From contig JAVVGF010000001.1 in assembly GCA_032249235.1 (NCBI GenBank), forward strand, positions 64,001 to 128,000: 64,000 nt of DNA, in the 5' to 3' direction. The notes below the pieces were generated by a model. The model did no database searches. It was not told where the DNA came from and was given only the letters and a program-made list of their open reading frames with translations. Made by a program: the position numbers and the translations under genes. This document shows, one piece after another, positions 23,944 to 29,739 of the stretch. This DNA is from Thermoproteota archaeon. GTDB lineage: Archaea > Thermoproteota > Thermoprotei > Gearchaeales > Gearchaeaceae. The stretch's first letter is position 1, and each line of letters opens with the position of its first letter.

Positions 23944-24528
23944 ATGAGTACTAAAGCTGTCAAGAAGGCACCGCCAAAAATCTTCAATGTCCATGTAGAT
24001 GGTGTTTTCAAAGATAAAATCGCAGGTCAAATTTTGGGAAGAGAGCCAAGCCATATTTTGAAAAGAACTGTAGAAACCACTCTTGCTGAACTTTTCGAAG
24101 ATTACACGAATTTATATTACCAATATGTTAAGTTAAAATTCCAGATCATCAAAGTAGATGGTACAGAAGCTTATGCAAAGTTCAAAGGTTATGAGCTTAC
24201 TAGAGACTATGTGAGGAGTTTAATAAGAGTAGGTACTTCAGCAGTATATGCTATTTATGATGTTGATACAACAGATAACATAAAATGCAGAATACAAACC
24301 CTTGCAATTACTGCTAAACGTGTTTCTCATTCAAAAGAAAGTTTGATAAGAAAATGCATTTGGAAAGTTTGTGAAGAAAAGCTATCTAATTTAAGCTTAG
24401 ATGATCTAGTTCAATATGTTTGCTTAGGTAAGCTTTCTGCAGATATTTTGATAGAAGCAAAGAAAATTTATCCACTTAAAAAAGTTGAAGTTATTAAAAT
24501 TAAAGTATTAACGCCCTATCTTATTTAG
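23944..24528 (+). CDS. rps3ae: 30S ribosomal protein S3Ae (eS1)
   Basis: RTVETTL, KLKFQI, ELTRDYVRSLIR, KKIYPLKKVEV.KIK. Confidence 0.95.
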   Translation: MSTKAVKKAPPKIFNVHVDGVFKDKIAGQILGREPSHILKRTVETTLAELFEDYTNLYYQYVKLKFQIIKVDGTEAYAKFKGYELTRDYVRSLIRVGTSAVYAIYDVDTTDNIKCRIQTLAITAKRVSHSKESLIRKCIWKVCEEKLSNLSLDDLVQYVCLGKLSADILIEAKKIYPLKKVEVIKIKVLTPYLI

Positions 24529-25723
24529 CAGCTACAATTTTTATTACATCTCTATGCTTCAATACATACTCTGCACCAATTCTTTGTTTGTTTTTAACAT
24601 CTATTGCATAGATGAAATTTTTACCCAAATCTGTATGAATCATATAAGCTAGTTCTCTTGCAGTGGTATCGCTAGGAACTAAGAAAACGTCAGGCAAAAC
24701 ATTTCCTTGATGATCAGTTAGTCTGTTTTGATCTTCGACAGGGAATACCGCAATGTAATTTAGGAGCTTGAAATAACATACTTCTAAAGCTTCCTGAACA
24801 CCTGTTGAACCAAATTTCTTCAATACGTTTTCTCTAATATAATTTAAAACTGCAAGCCTTTTTTCATCGATATTCTTAAGTATCTTAAAATCAGAATTTC
24901 CAGGCATATAATCGATAATTCCTAAATCGGCAGCTTTTCTTAAAGCTAATTCCGCTTCTGCAGATACTGGAATTACTATTCTATCTTTCATTTCATTCTT
25001 AATCCTTTCGTAATTTATCCAAGACGAAGGTAAATCAATTTTATTAGCCGCAATCAAAATAGGTTTAGCTTCTTTAATTAACAAGCTTACAAATAATTTC
25101 AAATCATCTTCTTTCCATTCTTTAGGATTTTTGTTCATTTTTTGAACTGTTCTCATAATGTGTTTCCTTTTAATTGAAAAGCCGCTTAGTTTTCTTTCTA
25201 AGAAATCAACAATCTTAGAAGATTCTTCATAGATAAGCTTCCTCATCTCTTTCTCAAAATCTTCCTTTAAATGCGAAAATACCCACATAGTTATCTCTTC
25301 CTCAATAAACTTGATATCTTCTAAAGGATCATGTGTTCCAGGCTTAACTATTCTTCCTTCAAAGTCAGTAGAACCAGATGTATCGACGACATGTATTAAT
25401 GCATCGCTCCTTCTTAATTCATCTAAAAATTTATTACCTAAACCTTTTCCTTTCCATGCTTCAGGAACAAGACCTGCAACATCAATAATTTCTATGGGTA
25501 CGTATCTTGTACCATTAATACAAATTGAATTCCTTGGATTATCTTGAACTCCGAGTTCTTTGCAAACGCATTTGACTCGCACGTAACCTATTCCTTTGTT
25601 TGGTTCTATGGTTGTAAAAGGAAAAGGAGCAATTTTTACATTCAGTTTAGTAATAGCGCTAAAAAAAGTACTTTTACCTACGTTTGGTTTACCTATTATA
25701 CCGATTAATGGCATCCAATGCAA
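24521..25723 (-). CDS. ychF: YchF/OBG-family ATPase with TGS domain
   Basis: GKPNVGKSTFF, PFTTIEPN, DVAGLV, GLGNKFL, ANKID, IHTDL. Confidence 0.92.
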   Translation of the reverse strand: MHWMPLIGIIGKPNVGKSTFFSAITKLNVKIAPFPFTTIEPNKGIGYVRVKCVCKELGVQDNPRNSICINGTRYVPIEIIDVAGLVPEAWKGKGLGNKFLDELRRSDALIHVVDTSGSTDFEGRIVKPGTHDPLEDIKFIEEEITMWVFSHLKEDFEKEMRKLIYEESSKIVDFLERKLSGFSIKRKHIMRTVQKMNKNPKEWKEDDLKLFVSLLIKEAKPILIAANKIDLPSSWINYERIKNEMKDRIVIPVSAEAELALRKAADLGIIDYMPGNSDFKILKNIDEKRLAVLNYIRENVLKKFGSTGVQEALEVCYFKLLNYIAVFPVEDQNRLTDHQGNVLPDVFLVPSDTTARELAYMIHTDLGKNFIYAIDVKNKQRIGAEYVLKHRDVIKIVAAK

Positions 25724-25827
25724 TTATTTCAATTTTCACTTAAAATGATATTTGAGGATTATGCATGAATGAGAGCTACTTCAACCATCATAGTTTAAAT
25801 TTTTAAATGTTCTCTTCTTTTATCCTT

Positions 25828-26763
25828 ATGTTCAATGTACTAATCTGCGATCCTATTTCAATAAATTGTGTTGAAAAATTGAAAGAAGAAAAATTCAACG
25901 TCATCTTCAAGCCTAATATTACAAGGGAATTGTTAATTGAAGAAGTTAAAGATAAAGATGCCTTAGTTGTTAGAGGAAGAACAAAGGTTGATGCTACCAT
26001 CATGGATAATGCAACAAAATTGAAAGTTATAGTTAGAGCTGGTGTAGGTTTAGATAATATAGATCTTCAATATGCTCAAATGAAGGGCATTGAAGTTTTC
26101 AACACACCAGAGGCAGTCACTAACGCTGTTGCCGAATTAACAATTTGCTTTATTATATCATTATTACGAAATGTTCATAAAGGAAATTCTTCTCTTAAAA
26201 AAGGAGAATGGATTAAAAATCTTCTCATAGGCAGCGAGTTAAAGAGTAAAACTGTAGGGATTCTAGGTTTTGGTAGAATAGGTATGGAAGTAGCTAAGAA
26301 ATTAAAAGCTTTTGATTGTAGAATTTTATGTTACAGTAGGACAGATAAAAGTGAAATTGCAAAGAAGATAGGCGTCGATTTCACTAATGATTTAGACTAT
26401 TTATTAAGGGAGTCTGATATACTAACCGTTCACTTAACTCTTAATAATGAAACTTATAAGTTCTTGAATAGAGAGAGATTGGCCAAGATGAAAAAAGGAG
26501 CATACTTGATCAACACTTCAAGAGGCGCAATTATTGATGAAGAAGCCTTATTAGAAGTATTAGAGAATGGGCATTTAGCAGGCGCAGCCTTAGATGTATT
26601 CGAATATGAACCTCCTCAAACAGAAATTGAAAAAAGATTATTGAGATTAGAAAATGTTTTAGTTACCCCACATATAGGTGCTCAAACTAAAGAAGCGATG
26701 GAAAAAGAAGGTGAAGAGGTTGCTCGAATATTAATAGATTACTTTAAGAAGATTAAAATATGA
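25828..26763 (+). CDS. D-2-hydroxyacid dehydrogenase (D-3-phosphoglycerate dehydrogenase-like, no ACT domain)
   Basis: RAGVGLDNID, GFGRIG, INTSRG, ALDVFEYEP, TPHIGAQT; start placed at the second Met. Confidence 0.88.
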   Translation: MFNVLICDPISINCVEKLKEEKFNVIFKPNITRELLIEEVKDKDALVVRGRTKVDATIMDNATKLKVIVRAGVGLDNIDLQYAQMKGIEVFNTPEAVTNAVAELTICFIISLLRNVHKGNSSLKKGEWIKNLLIGSELKSKTVGILGFGRIGMEVAKKLKAFDCRILCYSRTDKSEIAKKIGVDFTNDLDYLLRESDILTVHLTLNNETYKFLNRERLAKMKKGAYLINTSRGAIIDEEALLEVLENGHLAGAALDVFEYEPPQTEIEKRLLRLENVLVTPHIGAQTKEAMEKEGEEVARILIDYFKKIKI

Positions 26764-26784
26764 GAAAATTGAGATGATTAGTTA

Positions 26785-27231
26785 ATGGGTCTAGCAAAAT
26801 ACAGCAAACTGATAAAGAAGGTCTATGAAAATGAATTTAAGTTGAGATTAGCTGAATGGAGGAAACAACCTACTGTAGTTAAACTCGAGCATCCTACTAT
26901 AATTTGGAAAGCAAGGATGTTGGGATATAAAGCAAAGCAAGGGATTATAGTAGTAAGGGTGCGTGTAAGGAAAGGAAAATTTTCAAGACAAAGACCTAAA
27001 ACTGGAAGGAGACCTAAAAGGATGGGGACGACGAGATTAACTATAAAGAAAAGTCTAAGATTGATTGCAGAAGAAAAAGCTCAAAGAAAGTTTCCTAATA
27101 TGGAAGTATTGAACTCTTATTATGTAGCTGAAGATGGAATGTATAAATGGTATGAAGTTATTTTAGTCGATCCATATAGCACGAGTATAAAAAAGGATAA
27201 GAGTTTGAATTGGATATATAGAGGAGAATAA
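26785..27231 (+). CDS. rpl15e: 50S ribosomal protein L15e, N-terminal core only (148 aa)
   Basis: LGYKAKQG, RVRVRKG, GRRPKRMG, PNMEVLNSYYVAEDGMYKWYEVILVDP; stops before the RGLTSAG arm. Confidence 0.93.
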   Translation: MGLAKYSKLIKKVYENEFKLRLAEWRKQPTVVKLEHPTIIWKARMLGYKAKQGIIVVRVRVRKGKFSRQRPKTGRRPKRMGTTRLTIKKSLRLIAEEKAQRKFPNMEVLNSYYVAEDGMYKWYEVILVDPYSTSIKKDKSLNWIYRGE

Positions 27232-27656
27232 TGGCGCAAGTACCTGAAATAGATGCAGAAAAGCTTGAGTTTGAGGAATTAAGGAAGAAGCTTGTAGCAT
27301 ATGTAAAAACTAAAGAAGGTAAGAAAAGGAAAGCTAGAGGTTTTAGCAGAGATGAATTAAAAGCTGTTAATCTAACTCCTAAGCAGGCATTGAAGCTTGG
27401 AATACCAGTAGATATAAGAAGAAAAACTTCTTATGAAGAAAACATTAGCATTTTGAAAAGCATTGATTTAAAAAGGCTTGAGCAGCTTGCTAAGAAATAT
27501 TTGAAGAAGAAAAAGAAGAAAGTAAAAGGTAAGCATAGAAAGAGAGTATTTAGAGGCTTGACTTCTGCTGGTAAGAAAATGCGAGGTCTTAGAAAAGATA
27601 AACTAATCAATACACACAAGTATAAGTGGAAGAAAAAGAGAAAATGGGAAAAGTAG
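27231..27656 (+). CDS. rpl13e: 50S ribosomal protein L13e fused to the C-terminal arm of L15e
   Basis: RGFSRDELKAVNLT...LGIPVDIRRKTSYEEN (eL13) followed by KHRKRVFRGLTSAGKKMRGLRK...KYKWKKK (eL15 tail). Confidence 0.88.
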   Translation: MAQVPEIDAEKLEFEELRKKLVAYVKTKEGKKRKARGFSRDELKAVNLTPKQALKLGIPVDIRRKTSYEENISILKSIDLKRLEQLAKKYLKKKKKKVKGKHRKRVFRGLTSAGKKMRGLRKDKLINTHKYKWKKKRKWEK

Positions 27657-27853
27657 CTAAGGGAATTAAATGTAGCGTTATAGGTTGTAATAAGGAAGCT
27701 GAGAAATCTCTTTCTTCACAAAGAGCTTCATTAGCTACTTCTTTGAAGTTTGCTTTGAATTCAAGGCAAGTATACTTATGTAAAGAGCATTATAAAATCT
27801 GGAAGAAAGAAACGAAAGAAATTAGGGAAATTGAAAGAGCTGGATGGGAATAG
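27644..27853 (+). CDS. Small basic zinc-finger protein of unknown function (C-x4-C...C-x2-H)
   Basis: MGKVAKGIKCSVIGCNKEAEKSLS...YLCKEHYKIWKK; overlaps both neighbours. Confidence 0.75.
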   Translation: MGKVAKGIKCSVIGCNKEAEKSLSSQRASLATSLKFALNSRQVYLCKEHYKIWKKETKEIREIERAGWE

Positions 27854-28874
27854 CTTAGAAGAACTTTGTATTGTTTTAATCGGAGACTATCCAAGCTTAG
27901 CTGAAAAGGAAGTACTTTATTCTTTAGATTCAGCTGGTTTTTATTATGAATATATTGAAACTAGAGGATTATTGCTCATTTTGAAAACATATGAATTCGT
28001 GGTACCTTATCTTGTTTGGAGATGTGCGAAAATAAGACATGTATCGAAATTAATATTTAAAGGAAAAATTGAAGAAATCAAAAATCTTGAAAAAATTAAT
28101 CTAAATATCAAAGGTAGCTTGGCAGTAAGGATACATTCTTACGATAGAGAATATAAGCAAATAGTGAGAGATTTGGAAAGAAAAATAGGTTCTTATTTCT
28201 ATTATAAAGGCTATAAAATAGATTTAACTAATCCTTCTAACTTAATCACTGGCTATATTAAGGATGGATTAATTTATTTAGGAATACATTTAGCAAGCAC
28301 TAATCGAAAGCTTTTATTTTCAAGAAGACCAAGCAAGAAGCCCGCCTTTCATCCTTCATCTATGATGCCTGAAAATGCTAGGTTAATGGTAAATTTAGCT
28401 AAAGCTCCTTTGAATGAATTATTTGTTGATCCTTTTTGTGGAGTAGGAGGCATCTTGATAGAAGCAGCTTTCATTTCTCAACATTGTATAGGAATAGATA
28501 TAGATAAGAAAATGTTAAAGGGTTGTAAGATTAACGTTAACTATTACGGATTGTATAATGTTGACTTAATTCAAGCTGATGCTCTTAAAATACCTTTAAG
28601 AAGAATTAATAGCATTGCATGTGATACACCATATGGAATTGCTTCTTCTTTGAAGAAGCGTGAACATGAAAAGCTTGTATATGATTTCTTAAGAAACTTG
28701 AAAGAATATGGTAAGTTAAGAATATGCATTGCAACAACTCTAGAAAATCTAGAACCTGAAGGATTTAAAATAATTTTGAAATATCCTCAAAAAGTTAGAG
28801 AATCATTAATAAGATGGCTTTACGTTTTAGAGCTATATGATAGAGATCGTTTTCTTGGGTACATCGGGGAGTAA
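27831..28874 (+). CDS. THUMP-domain tRNA G10 N2-methyltransferase (Trm11/TrmG10 family)
   Basis: FHPSSM.P..AR.MVNL, DPFCGVGGILIEA, DTPYG. Confidence 0.85.
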   Translation: MKELDGNSLEELCIVLIGDYPSLAEKEVLYSLDSAGFYYEYIETRGLLLILKTYEFVVPYLVWRCAKIRHVSKLIFKGKIEEIKNLEKINLNIKGSLAVRIHSYDREYKQIVRDLERKIGSYFYYKGYKIDLTNPSNLITGYIKDGLIYLGIHLASTNRKLLFSRRPSKKPAFHPSSMMPENARLMVNLAKAPLNELFVDPFCGVGGILIEAAFISQHCIGIDIDKKMLKGCKINVNYYGLYNVDLIQADALKIPLRRINSIACDTPYGIASSLKKREHEKLVYDFLRNLKEYGKLRICIATTLENLEPEGFKIILKYPQKVRESLIRWLYVLELYDRDRFLGYIGE

Positions 28875-29739
28875 ACCAACAAAACATAGAGGGCTACCTT
28901 CAATTGCTTTGATATTCGATGGTGATATTTACTTATTAGATTGTGGTGAAGGCACGCAAAGACAAATTTTAAATTCAGGTCTTAATTCTAACAAAATAAA
29001 ATGCGTTTTTATTTCCCATTTGCATGGTGATCATTGGTTTGGTCTTCCAGGTTTAATTTGGAGTACTGGTTTAGACATGAGAAAGGAAGATTTAGTAGTA
29101 TATGCTCCAAAAAGGTTTTCAGAAATTTTTTCAACTTTAGATGAATTTTTGCATCCTTATAGACTTTATAAAGTAATCATAAAAGAAATTGAAGAAGGAT
29201 TGATATATGAAGATAAGAAGATTGAAGTTTATGCAATGAAAGCAAAACATAGCGTTGAAAGTTATTCTTTCAAAATAAAGGAAAAGGACAGACCTCCTAA
29301 AGTATTAAAAGATAAGCTAAAAGAGCTAAACATTCCTGAAGGGCCTCATTTAAGAAAACTGAAAGCAGGATATCCAGTAAAGTTGCCGGATGGAAGAATG
29401 ATATATCCTGAGCAAGTTTTAGGAGAACCGAAAAAAGGAAAGATCATTGTTTATAGTGGTGATACTGCACCAAATGAATCATTGATTGAATTTGCTAAAG
29501 ATGCTGATGTATTAATTCATGAAGCCACTTTCAGCGATGAAGAAGAAGCGATGGCTAGAGAATCGAAGCACTCAACAAGTAGAGATGCTGCGAGAATTGC
29601 TAAGAAAGCAAATGTAAAATTATTGATCTTAACACATGTAAGCGCTAGATATAAAAGTCCTGATTTATTATTAGCTCAGGCTAAAGAAGAATTTGAAAAT
29701 GTAATTATTGCTCAAGATTTCTCTCGCTTTCAGATTTAG
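28837..29739 (+). CDS. rnz: Ribonuclease Z
   Basis: FLGTSG, DCGEGTQRQ, SHLHGDH, GP exosite, YSGDT, HEAT, THVSARY. Confidence 0.96.
   Translation: MIEIVFLGTSGSKPTKHRGLPSIALIFDGDIYLLDCGEGTQRQILNSGLNSNKIKCVFISHLHGDHWFGLPGLIWSTGLDMRKEDLVVYAPKRFSEIFSTLDEFLHPYRLYKVIIKEIEEGLIYEDKKIEVYAMKAKHSVESYSFKIKEKDRPPKVLKDKLKELNIPEGPHLRKLKAGYPVKLPDGRMIYPEQVLGEPKKGKIIVYSGDTAPNESLIEFAKDADVLIHEATFSDEEEAMARESKHSTSRDAARIAKKANVKLLILTHVSARYKSPDLLLAQAKEEFENVIIAQDFSRFQI

What the first reader, a model, noticed from the sequence alone, without database searches (positions are those of the whole stretch)
26785..27656. Split ribosomal protein eL15: its C-terminal rRNA-binding arm is fused onto eL13
Seen: rpl15e stops at 148 aa (…DPYSTSIKKDKSLNWIYRGE*). 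The next gene starts by a TAATG overlap and encodes a full eL13 core (RGFSRDELK…GIPVDIRRKT), a helical poly-Lys linker, then from 27531 KHRKRVFRGLTSAGKKMRGLRK…THKYKWKKK. Known: eL15 is normally about 195-215 aa and the RGLTSAG.K.RGL motif directly follows the conserved W in archaea and eukaryotes; crenarchaeal eL15 continues with KYKWKKK; eL13 and eL15 lie near each other in the large subunit. Inference: rpl13e was inserted into rpl15e, so the eL15 arm is now delivered by eL13. I know of no description of this domain swap, and it would be a strong lineage marker.
Basis: partly seen in the sequence, partly recalled or inferred. Interest (0 to 1): 0.88.

Follow-up and report, generated by a model that had tools for sequence, protein, structure and literature searches.

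The report
eL15 arm carried by eL13
This archaeon's ribosomal protein eL15 lacks its usual C-terminal RNA-binding arm, and the arm is instead encoded at the end of the neighbouring eL13 gene, an old rearrangement shared by a whole class of archaea rather than peculiar to this genome.

Summary
rpl15e (26785-27231) encodes only the eL15 core. The overlapping next gene (27231-27656) encodes an eL13 core, a Lys-rich linker and the eL15 C-terminal arm. Profile coordinates are complementary: PF00827 15-151 on the first gene and 152-188 on the second.

It is not an artefact. No other copy exists in the genome, and independent contigs bridge the junction without indels.

It is not a marker of this lineage. 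All 22 sampled genomes of the window's class have eL13+arm, against 0 of 139 sampled elsewhere in the phylum. In a separate sample of a second class, 44 of 151 genomes also have it. Public records titled Pyrobaculum, Thermoproteus, Caldivirga and Thermofilum carry it. So does the eL13 chain of the solved P. calidifontis ribosome, 9E6Q. Aeropyrum, Pyrodictium and Sulfolobus keep the arm on eL15.

What is special here is gene linkage. Only the window's order in its class, plus four genomes of the second class, keep the two genes adjacent, probably a relic of an ancestral rpl15e-rpl13e pair. Nine literature searches found no description. That the arm occupies the canonical eL15 site is inferred, not shown.

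The parts
26785..27231 (+). rpl15e, core only (148 aa plus TAA stop); it ends four residues after the conserved NWI motif and has no C-terminal arm
   Evidence: PF00827 191.1 bits covering profile positions 15-151 of 191; NF003269 212.4 bits (cut-off 178) covering 15-153 of 196; 64% identity to residues 25-154 of A. pernix eL15.
27221..27226 (+). GAGGAG, a Shine-Dalgarno-like hexamer 4 nt upstream of the rpl13e ATG, inside the end of rpl15e
   Evidence: Read directly from the sequence. Its function is inferred and was not tested.
27229..27233 (+). TAATG stop/start overlap joining the two genes. ORF2 lies in the +2 frame relative to ORF1.
   Evidence: In the seven other same-order genomes examined, a candidate start in the eL13 frame overlaps the eL15 stop or lies at most 13 nt after it, with varying geometry.
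27231..27656 (+). rpl13e::arm fusion gene (141 aa plus TAG stop)
   Evidence: best PDB match is the 157-aa eL13 of P. calidifontis (9e6q_AH), aligned over query residues 31-138, E 3.2e-18.
27306..27464 (+). eL13 core (residues 26-78 of ORF2)
   Evidence: NF008914, positions 22-74 of 83, E 1.2e-16. PF01294 37.8 bits, above the 24.9 cut-off.
27465..27521 (+). Helical, Lys-rich linker between the eL13 core and the arm (residues 79-97)
   Evidence: the region is poorly conserved in alignment A1. The boundaries are approximate.
27522..27653 (+). eL15 C-terminal arm (residues 98-141 of ORF2), with the RVFRGLTSAGKKMRGL motif and a THKYKWKKK-type continuation
   Evidence: PF00827 positions 152-188; NF003269 positions 152-191; matches residues about 153-190 of eL15 chains in archaeal and eukaryotic ribosome structures; 74% identity to A. 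pernix eL15 residues 154-184.
25807..26763 (+). Upstream neighbour, a D-2-hydroxyacid dehydrogenase family gene (synteny marker, not part of the ribosomal pair)
   Evidence: PF02826 and PF00389; a homologue lies directly upstream of rpl15e in five class-level relatives whose rpl13e is unlinked.
27644..27853 (+). Downstream small ORF (69 aa from the ATG at 27644), overlapping the end of rpl13e::arm; context only
   Evidence: conserved in the same position in seven other genomes of the order; no Pfam family.

Best explanation
The locus is a tightly coupled two-gene unit for two separate large-subunit proteins. One is an arm-less eL15 (core only). The other is an eL13 whose C-terminus carries, after a Lys-rich linker, the rRNA-binding arm that canonical eL15 bears at its own C-terminus.

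The arrangement is ancient and conserved. It is the normal state of the whole class to which the window belongs, and of part of a second class of the same phylum. It most likely arose in an ancestral linked rpl15e-rpl13e pair by moving the roughly 150-200 bp arm-coding segment from the 3' end of rpl15e to the 3' end of rpl13e. The window's order still keeps the two genes adjacent and translationally coupled. Other orders of the class have since separated them.

Functionally, the arm is inferred to bind the same rRNA site as in canonical ribosomes, delivered by the neighbouring protein eL13 instead of eL15.

Shown: the domain composition, the exact complementarity of the two genes, the absence of an intact eL15, the conservation and the distribution.

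Inferred: two polypeptides in this organism, the site occupied by the arm, the direction of the rearrangement and its mechanism.
For: Domain complementarity:
- Pfam and NCBIfam place the core on ORF1 and the arm on ORF2 with abutting profile coordinates.
- The two ORFs align to abutting parts of A. pernix eL15.
- With the arm alone as query, the hits are the eL13 of P. calidifontis and residues about 151-193 of eL15 chains from Pyrococcus, Thermococcus, Haloarcula, S. acidocaldarius and eukaryotes.

No intact copy in the genome.

Real DNA: independent contigs bridge the junction without indels.

Conservation in the class:
- 39 of 41 relatives have a PF00827 match, and all 39 have a core match plus a separate arm-only match.
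- In 15 of 15 class-level loci read, the arm is the C-terminus of an eL13 frame.
- 23 of 23 eL15 sequences of the class lack the arm motif. The 6 sequences from the other class in the same listing have it.
- A profile of 19 eL13+arm proteins matches full length in 22 of 22 class genomes and in 0 of 139 others in the phylum sample. In about 55 of those 139 the arm part instead hits the 3' end of the eL15 gene, with E down to 3e-22.

Homology of the arm: it is colinear over about 55-60 residues with eL15 arms from other genomes of the phylum outside the window's class (alignment A4).

Separate proteins:
- The genes are unlinked in 29 of 29 class genomes outside the order.
- The PDB holds separate eL13 (157 aa) and eL15 (189 aa) chains for P. 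calidifontis.
- The stop/start geometry varies among the eight linked cases.

Ancestral linkage, in the second class (my reading of coordinates; sequences read):
- 16 genomes have full eL15 followed within 300 nt by short eL13.
- 4 have eL15 core followed by eL13+arm.
- 10 have arm-less eL15 followed by arm-less eL13.

Flanking synteny: the window's upstream neighbour travels with rpl15e in 5 class-level relatives, and a downstream gene travels with rpl13e::arm in 3.

Neighbourhood in the ribosome:
- eL13 and eL15 are both domain-I binders of yeast 25S rRNA (PMC12825303, passages read).
- Their extensions are described as assembling together on uL4 in eukaryotes (PMC7804294, passages read).
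Against: - No tool here could read coordinates of 9E6Q, so the position of the eL13-borne arm in a ribosome was not checked.
- Many lineages of the phylum have arm-less eL15 and no detectable arm anywhere: about 84 of 139, and an arm-less 151-aa eL15 was read in one genome of family f16. The arm is therefore dispensable in some ribosomes and need not keep its canonical role.
- The window's arm is truncated compared with class relatives. It ends after the KWKKK stretch and lacks the ...KKRHEA... end.
- Two-protein trees did not resolve whether the window's order is basal in its class. Family f1 sat on a long branch away from f2, against the taxonomy. 'Adjacency is ancestral' therefore rests on synteny and outgroup comparison only.
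- ORF2 misses NCBIfam's curated cut-off for L13e (60.1 against 96 bits).
- ORF2 only just reaches Pfam's cut-off for L15e (27.1 against 27).
- No direct evidence of expression: contigs from an RNA library cover parts of both genes, but the tool warns that this does not show transcription.
Confidence: 0.85

Rival explanations
1. The eL13-borne tail is homologous to the eL15 arm but no longer does the canonical job. It binds elsewhere, is disordered, or serves assembly only, and the canonical arm site is empty or filled by rRNA or another protein.
For: About 84 of 139 phylum genomes outside the class have arm-less eL15 and no detectable arm, so ribosomes of this phylum can do without it. The window's arm is shortened at its C-terminal end. 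In other orders of the class eL15 has gained new basic C-terminal tails.
Against: The core motif of the arm is among the best conserved parts of the fusion protein. F107, T111, G114, R118, G119, H129 and K132 are invariant in the 19 sequences of alignment A1. That argues for a conserved binding partner. eL13 and eL15 bind the same rRNA domain in yeast.
Confidence: 0.12
2. One polypeptide is made: recoding (a frameshift or read-through at the TAATG) produces an eL15core-eL13-arm chain, so the protein is an eL15 with eL13 inserted.
For: The genes overlap by one base. An A-AAA-AAG heptamer lies in frame at about 27187-27193 (read).
Against: A -1 shift at that heptamer meets a stop after two codons (reading). 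The stop/start geometry differs in each of the eight linked genomes: candidate starts overlap the eL15 stop by up to 20 nt or follow it by up to 13 nt. The genes are unlinked in 29 of 29 class genomes outside the order. The PDB lists separate eL13 and eL15 chains. A start codon and a GAGGAG hexamer precede ORF2.
Confidence: 0.03
3. Assembly or sequencing artefact, or a decaying pseudogene: a chimeric join or frameshift error created the apparent split.
For: The window comes from a metagenome-type assembly of 18 contigs, 91% complete.
Against: A 6214-bp contig from another run spans the whole region. A 717-bp strain-variant contig with 11 substitutions and no indels spans the junction and the arm. 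The same architecture is found in three same-genus and five other same-order genomes, and class-wide in complete single-contig genomes.
Confidence: 0.01
4. Chance or convergent similarity: the tail of ORF2 is merely a basic low-complexity extension that resembles the eL15 arm.
For: The region is Lys/Arg-rich. The single-domain Pfam score is borderline (27.1 bits).
Against: The profile coordinates are exactly complementary in two independent libraries. Identity to A. pernix eL15 is 74% over 31 residues. The arm part of profile A1 hits eL15 3' ends at E down to 3e-22. The sequences are colinear over about 55-60 residues. eL15 has lost precisely this segment in the same genomes.
Confidence: 0.01
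5. A recent event specific to this lineage.
For: The TAATG-linked arrangement is confined, within the class, to the window's order.
Against: The fusion itself is present in all 10 families of the class that were sampled. It is present in 56 public records of Pyrobaculum, Thermoproteus, Caldivirga, Thermofilaceae and others, and in 44 of 151 genomes of a second class.
Confidence: 0.02

Closest known systems
Canonical eL15 (Ribosomal_L15e, PF00827; NCBIfam NF003269). Examples: A. pernix K1 (225 aa, P0035) and PDB chains 8hku_L15E, 4v6u, 6skf, 1jj2 and yeast 60S.
   Same: ORF1 is a clear orthologue of the core (64% identity to A. pernix; 191 bits to Pfam). The tail of ORF2 is the orthologue of the C-terminal arm.
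   Different: Here the family domain is divided between two genes, and its last 40 or so profile positions are fused to another ribosomal protein.
Short archaeal eL13 (NCBIfam NF008914/PRK12277, 83 positions; Pfam PF01294). Seen here as 70-110-aa frames in records titled Acidilobaceae, Pyrodictiaceae, Nezhaarchaeales and others.
   Same: Residues 26-78 of ORF2 match profile positions 22-74 of 83 (E 1.2e-16). The conserved core motifs are shared (alignment A1).
   Different: ORF2 is about 60 residues longer because of the linker and the eL15 arm. It scores below NCBIfam's equivalog cut-off (60.1 against 96 bits).
eL13 of Pyrobaculum calidifontis in the solved ribosome (PDB 9E6Q, 9E71, 9E7F, chain AH, 157 aa; bioRxiv 10.1101/2024.11.12.623245)
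   Same: It has the same core+linker+arm architecture and aligns to ORF2 over residues 31-138 (E 3.2e-18). Its eL15 partner (189 aa) aligns to ORF1 only up to about residue 146.
   Different: It has a longer arm end. The deposit calls the chain simply eL13, and the main text of the preprint has no occurrence of eL13, eL15, L13e or L15e (term search). Its supplements could not be opened.
Linked rpl15e(full)-rpl13e(short) pairs in a second class of the phylum (for example loci L069-L075)
   Same: Same gene order, strand and tight spacing.
   Different: The arm is still on eL15, and eL13 ends in a Lys-rich tail. This looks like the state before the transfer.
Linked eL15core-eL13::arm pairs in that second class (G262, G274, G278, G330; loci L206, L208, L198, L207)
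   Same: Identical architecture and linkage to the window. For G278 (L198), PF01294 plus PF00827 positions 153-181 on one protein.
   Different: A different class. Whether the origin is shared or independent is unresolved.

Membership tests
eL15 (Pfam PF00827 Ribosomal_L15e; NCBIfam NF003269) | Whole-protein score above the curated cut-off | tested here: met
   ORF1 scores 191.1 bits against a cut-off of 27, and 212.4 bits against a cut-off of 178.
eL15 (Pfam PF00827 Ribosomal_L15e; NCBIfam NF003269) | One polypeptide covers the whole domain, including the C-terminal arm (profile positions about 152-190) | tested here: not met
   ORF1 stops at profile position 151 (Pfam) or 153 (NCBIfam). Positions 152-188 (Pfam) or 152-191 (NCBIfam) are on ORF2.
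eL15 (Pfam PF00827 Ribosomal_L15e; NCBIfam NF003269) | Single copy and the only eL15 of the genome (orthologue, not a paralogue fragment) | tested here: met
   only these two matches in the 91%-complete genome.
eL13 (Pfam PF01294 Ribosomal_L13e; NCBIfam NF008914) | Score above the curated cut-off | tested here: inconclusive
   Pfam: 37.8 bits against a cut-off of 24.9, met. NCBIfam equivalog: 60.1 bits against a cut-off of 96, not met although E is 1.2e-16.
eL13 (Pfam PF01294 Ribosomal_L13e; NCBIfam NF008914) | Relatives are experimentally placed as eL13 in a ribosome | tested here: met
   The best PDB hit is 9e6q_AH, 'Large ribosomal subunit protein eL13' (E 3.2e-18). Eukaryotic eL13 chains follow.
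eL13::eL15-arm fusion (architecture seen class-wide; not a curated family) | eL13 core and eL15 arm in one frame, together with an arm-less eL15 in the same genome | tested here: met
   G000 behaves like the other 21 class genomes sampled.
eL13::eL15-arm fusion (architecture seen class-wide; not a curated family) | The arm occupies the canonical eL15-arm site on 23S rRNA | not testable with these tools
   PDB coordinates cannot be read here.

The most novel reading that the evidence does not exclude
Ribosomal-protein extensions are portable modules. Starting from an ancestral rpl15e-rpl13e operon, the conserved eL15 rRNA-binding arm was moved onto the neighbouring protein eL13 at least twice independently, once in the stem of the window's class and at least once in a second class. 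It was lost altogether in other lineages. The window's order preserves the post-transfer operon as a living record of how the transfer happened, for example by tandem duplication of the arm-rpl13e segment followed by loss of the redundant pieces.

The three states (arm on eL15, arm on eL13, no arm) would then be rare genomic changes usable to test deep branching in this phylum. One example is the separation of the Pyrobaculum/Thermofilum-type lineages from the Sulfolobus/Aeropyrum-type lineages.
Probability: 0.45. Interest if true: 0.72.

Novelty: new variant of a known kind. Interest (0 to 1): 0.58.

Why it matters
Ribosomal proteins are among the most conserved genes known, and their long extensions are thought to co-evolve with the rRNA they thread into. 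Here a conserved extension has changed carrier protein while keeping its sequence. That implies the site of binding matters, not the protein the arm hangs from. It also implies that neighbouring ribosomal proteins can exchange modules.

There are practical consequences:
- eL15 and eL13 are used as phylogenetic markers and in genome-completeness sets. Profile models and annotation pipelines treat the short eL15 and long eL13 of these archaea as ordinary. One close homologue is named only 'ribosomal protein L13e'.
- Alignments that concatenate eL15 will mix non-homologous C-termini.
- The three character states could serve as rare genomic changes for deep archaeal phylogeny.
- A solved structure (9E6Q) already exists in which the structural prediction can be checked at once.

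Tried and rejected
**Complex prediction.** I submitted the eL15 core (alignment A2) with eL13+arm (alignment A1). The verdict was 'no answer': score 0.26 against a mark of 0.32, and the controls were not run. This is evidence neither for nor against binding.

**Phylogeny.**
- I built a maximum-likelihood tree of concatenated eL15 core and eL13 core with 34 taxa and 212 columns. G013 and G019 were dropped because my motif search did not find their eL15.
- A second tree had 38 taxa and 210 columns. G134, G279, G201 and G304 were dropped for the same reason.
- Deep nodes had 19-66% bootstrap support. Family f1 sat on a long branch apart from f2, against the taxonomy, and G135 was misplaced.
- The trees therefore answer neither whether the window's order is basal nor whether the fusion arose once or twice.

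**Search for an intermediate with arms on both proteins.** The only candidates were G256 and G252. On reading them, G256 has a full eL15 plus an eL13 with a helix-hairpin-helix tail. G252 and G294 have Lys-rich eL13 tails without the arm motif. No genome with both arms was found among those examined.

**Extra PF00827 matches outside the class.** These hit other profile regions at E 0.01-0.09 and are spurious.

**Frameshift idea.** The in-frame A-AAA-AAG heptamer near 27187 leads to a stop after two codons in the -1 frame (reading). Rejected.

**RNA evidence.** Contigs from a metatranscriptome library cover 27036-27218 and 27332-27510. The tool states that this does not show transcription, so it is not used as evidence.

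**Literature.** Nine full-text searches found no description of an eL15 arm on eL13. The terms combined eL13/eL15 or L13e/L15e with Pyrobaculum, calidifontis, Crenarchaeota, Thermoproteales, Bathyarchaeia, fusion, C-terminal and 9E6Q.

Papers in which I read only the passages around my terms:
- 10.1101/2024.11.12.623245
- PMC9932298
- 10.1101/2021.01.31.429008
- PMC7804294
- PMC3082918
- PMC12825303

Subscription journals are not in the library.

Full report
**1. What is in the sequence**

Two ORFs lie head to tail on the + strand.
- ORF1 is 26785-27231, 148 aa.
- ORF2 is 27231-27656, 141 aa.
- The stop of ORF1 and the start of ORF2 share one base (TAATG at 27229-27233).
- A GAGGAG hexamer sits 4 nt upstream of the ATG.

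Pfam gives these matches:
- ORF1 matches Ribosomal_L15e at 191.1 bits. The match covers only profile positions 15-151 of 191.
- ORF2 matches Ribosomal_L13e at 37.8 bits (cut-off 24.9), residues 30-107.
- ORF2 residues 99-135 match Ribosomal_L15e positions 152-188 at 27.1 bits (cut-off 27).

NCBIfam repeats the picture independently:
- The L15e model covers positions 15-153 on ORF1 and 152-191 on ORF2.
- The 83-position archaeal L13e model covers positions 22-74 on ORF2, at E 1.2e-16. That score is below the curated equivalog cut-off.

Comparison with the 225-aa eL15 of Aeropyrum pernix K1 agrees:
- ORF1 aligns to residues 25-154 at 64% identity.
- The ORF2 tail aligns to residues 154-184 at 74% identity.

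The canonical protein is cut at one point, and the two pieces sit on either side of an eL13 core.

**2. It is real and it is the only copy**

- The window's genome is 91% complete in 18 contigs. It has no other L15e or L13e match.
- A 6214-bp contig from another public run spans 26500-27900 with five substitutions.
- A 717-bp contig of a strain variant spans 27077-27793 with eleven substitutions. No insertions or deletions were reported in either.
- One further run is near-identical but may be the source of the window, so I do not count it.
- Contigs from an RNA library cover parts of both genes. The tool warns that this does not prove transcription.

**3. It is the rule in the whole class, not a peculiarity of this genome**

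Among 41 genomes of the window's genus, family, order and class, 39 have a PF00827 match. All 39 have two matches: a core (profile positions 1-17 at the start to about 151-176 at the end; one reaches only 137) and a separate arm-only match (about 139-157 to 186-190). The two genomes without any match are 91% and 81% complete.

Further checks in the class:
- I read the arm loci of 15 class-level relatives. In 15 of 15 the arm is the C-terminal end of a frame with the eL13 core.
- All 23 eL15 sequences of the class that I extracted lack the arm motif. Some stop just after the core. Others carry an unrelated basic tail. The six sequences from another class in the same listing have the arm.
- A profile built from 19 eL13+arm proteins (A1) was run on 161 genomes of the phylum that are at least 85% complete. 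It matched over its full length in 22 of 22 genomes of the class and in 0 of 139 others.
- Outside the class, eL13 is a 70-110-aa core-only frame. In about 55 of the 139 (my count from the table) the arm part of the profile hits the 3' end of the eL15 gene instead, with E down to 3e-22. In the remaining 84 or so no arm was found at E <= 0.01.

Public records with names:
- Records titled Pyrobaculum (including P. oguniense TE7 and sp. WP30), Thermoproteus, Caldivirga, Thermofilum/Thermofilaceae and Infirmifilum carry the full-length fusion. These are 56 of the 80 loci returned.
- The Protein Data Bank holds it too. The eL13 chain of the P. calidifontis ribosome (9E6Q, 9E71, 9E7F) is 157 aa and aligns to ORF2 through the arm. 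The eL15 chain of that entry aligns to ORF1 only to about residue 146.
- Canonical, arm-bearing eL15 is found in S. acidocaldarius (8HKU), Pyrococcus, Thermococcus, Haloarcula and eukaryotes, and in A. pernix and Pyrodictium delaneyi.
- The tool does not name the window's class. I infer from these records and from recalled taxonomy that it is the class holding Thermoproteales and Thermofilales.

**4. The arm is homologous, not a look-alike**

Alignment A4 shows that the eL13 tails of the class are colinear with eL15 arms from other genomes of the phylum outside the window's class over about 55-60 residues. The shared stretch includes the RVFRGLTSAGKK-RGL motif, a THKYKWKKK-type stretch and a ...KKRHEA-RGAR end.

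The window's family has a shortened version that ends after the KWKKK stretch. Alignment A3 shows the junction. ORF1 ends four residues after the conserved NWI, and the ORF2 arm starts where the full-length proteins continue.

**5. What is special about the window: linkage**

Within the class, the two genes are adjacent only in the window's order.
- Nine of the ten same-order genomes with matches, the window included, have them adjacent. In the tenth the two matches are on different contigs.
- In 0 of 29 genomes of other orders are they adjacent. The closest are 12 kb apart.
- In the eight linked cases that I examined base by base, a candidate start in the eL13 frame overlaps the eL15 stop or follows it within 13 nt. 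The frames differ and the geometry varies. That fits translational coupling of two proteins and not a conserved recoding site.

**6. A second class shows the same thing, and the likely starting point**

The search for related loci also returned eL13+arm genes in records titled Candidatus Hecatellales, Bathyarchaeia and Bathyarchaeota. Their genomes have arm-less eL15.

I sampled 151 genomes of that class, at least 70% complete.
- 44 have core and arm in one frame. I read eleven of them.
- Three other long matches turned out not to be arms.

Reading the coordinates together gives these linked arrangements:
- 16 genomes have a full-length eL15 followed within 300 nt by a short eL13.
- 4 genomes (G262, G274, G278, G330) have exactly the window's arrangement, eL15 core followed directly by eL13+arm.
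- 10 genomes have an arm-less eL15 followed by an arm-less eL13.

So rpl15e-rpl13e linkage is widespread and accompanies all three states. That makes an ancestral linked pair the most economical starting point.

Flanking synteny in the window's own class agrees. The 2-hydroxyacid-dehydrogenase gene upstream of the window's rpl15e is also directly upstream of rpl15e in five relatives whose rpl13e has moved away. A gene 2 kb downstream of the window's rpl13e is next to rpl13e::arm in three relatives of family f8.

**7. How it probably happened and works (inference)**

The derived order, core followed by eL13-arm, differs from the presumed ancestral order, core-arm followed by eL13, by the position of one segment of about 150-200 bp.

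One route keeps function throughout:
- A tandem duplication of the arm-plus-rpl13e segment gives core-arm, eL13-arm and eL13.
- The redundant first arm and the last eL13 copy are then lost.

I found no intermediate with both arms.

Whether the transfer happened once or independently in the two classes is open. Two points make two events somewhat more likely to me (about 60:40):
- Parsimony on the recalled species tree.
- The long arm end (...KKRHEA-RGAR) is shared by the window class's eL13 arms and the eL15 arms of the out-of-class genomes aligned in A4. It is absent from the second-class eL13 arms that I read.
My two-protein trees could not test this.

Functionally, the strong conservation of the arm motif on its new carrier (invariant columns in A1) argues that it still binds a conserved partner. 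eL13 and eL15 bind the same 25S rRNA domain in yeast, and their extensions are reported to assemble together on uL4. I therefore expect the arm to occupy the canonical pocket. I could not check this, because no tool here reads PDB coordinates. The complex prediction gave no verdict.

**8. Comparison with what is known, and novelty**

Each half belongs to a textbook family. The combination is already present, unremarked, in public genomes, in precomputed Pfam annotations (PF00827 plus PF01294 on the same proteins) and in a deposited ribosome structure.

Nine full-text searches found no paper that describes an arm-less eL15 or an eL13 carrying the eL15 arm.

I therefore rate it as a new variant of a known kind: a gene fission and fusion among ribosomal proteins. 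It is real and conserved, of moderate to good interest for ribosome evolution and for archaeal systematics, but it is not specific to this window. The window's own contribution is that it preserves the linked, overlapping form.

**9. Verdict**

- Observation: confirmed.
- Interpretation: partly supported. The split and fusion are right. The 'lineage marker' claim is wrong in scope. The mechanism and the binding site are unproven.
- Confidence in the main explanation: 0.85.
- Interest: 0.58.

Noticed in passing
window 27644-27853 (+): A small ORF (69 aa from the ATG at 27644) overlaps the last 13 nt of rpl13e::arm. It has a Cys-x4-Cys ... Cys-x2-His pattern and no Pfam or NCBIfam family. Homologues sit in the same position after rpl13e::arm in seven other genomes of the order. 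It could be a zinc-binding partner or a small ribosome-associated protein.
   Followed up: partly
Phylum sample (for example family f11, 22 genomes; f16, L084:1453-1908): Many lineages have an eL15 of about 150 aa that stops at the core, and no arm anywhere at E <= 0.01. In f11, 22 of 22 genomes also lack any eL13 match. The f16 eL15 read is 151 aa. The conserved arm has apparently been lost outright several times.
   Followed up: partly
L004-L023 (eL15 of other orders of the class): Where rpl15e and rpl13e are unlinked, eL15 has acquired an unrelated basic, probably helical, C-terminal tail of about 30-45 aa. In the window's order eL15 ends right after the core.
   Followed up: no
L191:935-1330 (-), genome G256: An eL13 of the second class carries a C-terminal helix-hairpin-helix domain (PF14520, E 1.9e-5; score 25.5 bits, below the 27-bit cut-off) instead of an arm or a Lys-rich tail. 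The eL15 of that genome is full length.
   Followed up: partly
Protein P0005: A close homologue (71% identity, 138 aa, PF00827 plus PF01294) is named in NCBI as 'ribosomal protein L13e [Geobacterales bacterium]'. That is a bacterial organism label on an archaeal-type ribosomal protein, so the label is probably wrong.
   Followed up: no
window 26785-26830; In the window's family the eL15 N-terminus is divergent. Pfam matches start at profile position 10-15, against 1-2 in other families, and the family sits on a long branch in both trees.
   Followed up: no
window 24521-25723 (-), 27831-28874 (+), 28837-29739 (+): The neighbours are an Obg-like GTPase with a TGS domain, a UPF0020-type (RNA) methyltransferase and a tRNase Z-like metallo-beta-lactamase. 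The methyltransferase and the tRNase Z are also close to the rpl15e-rpl13e pair in a genome of the second class, locus L072.
   Followed up: partly
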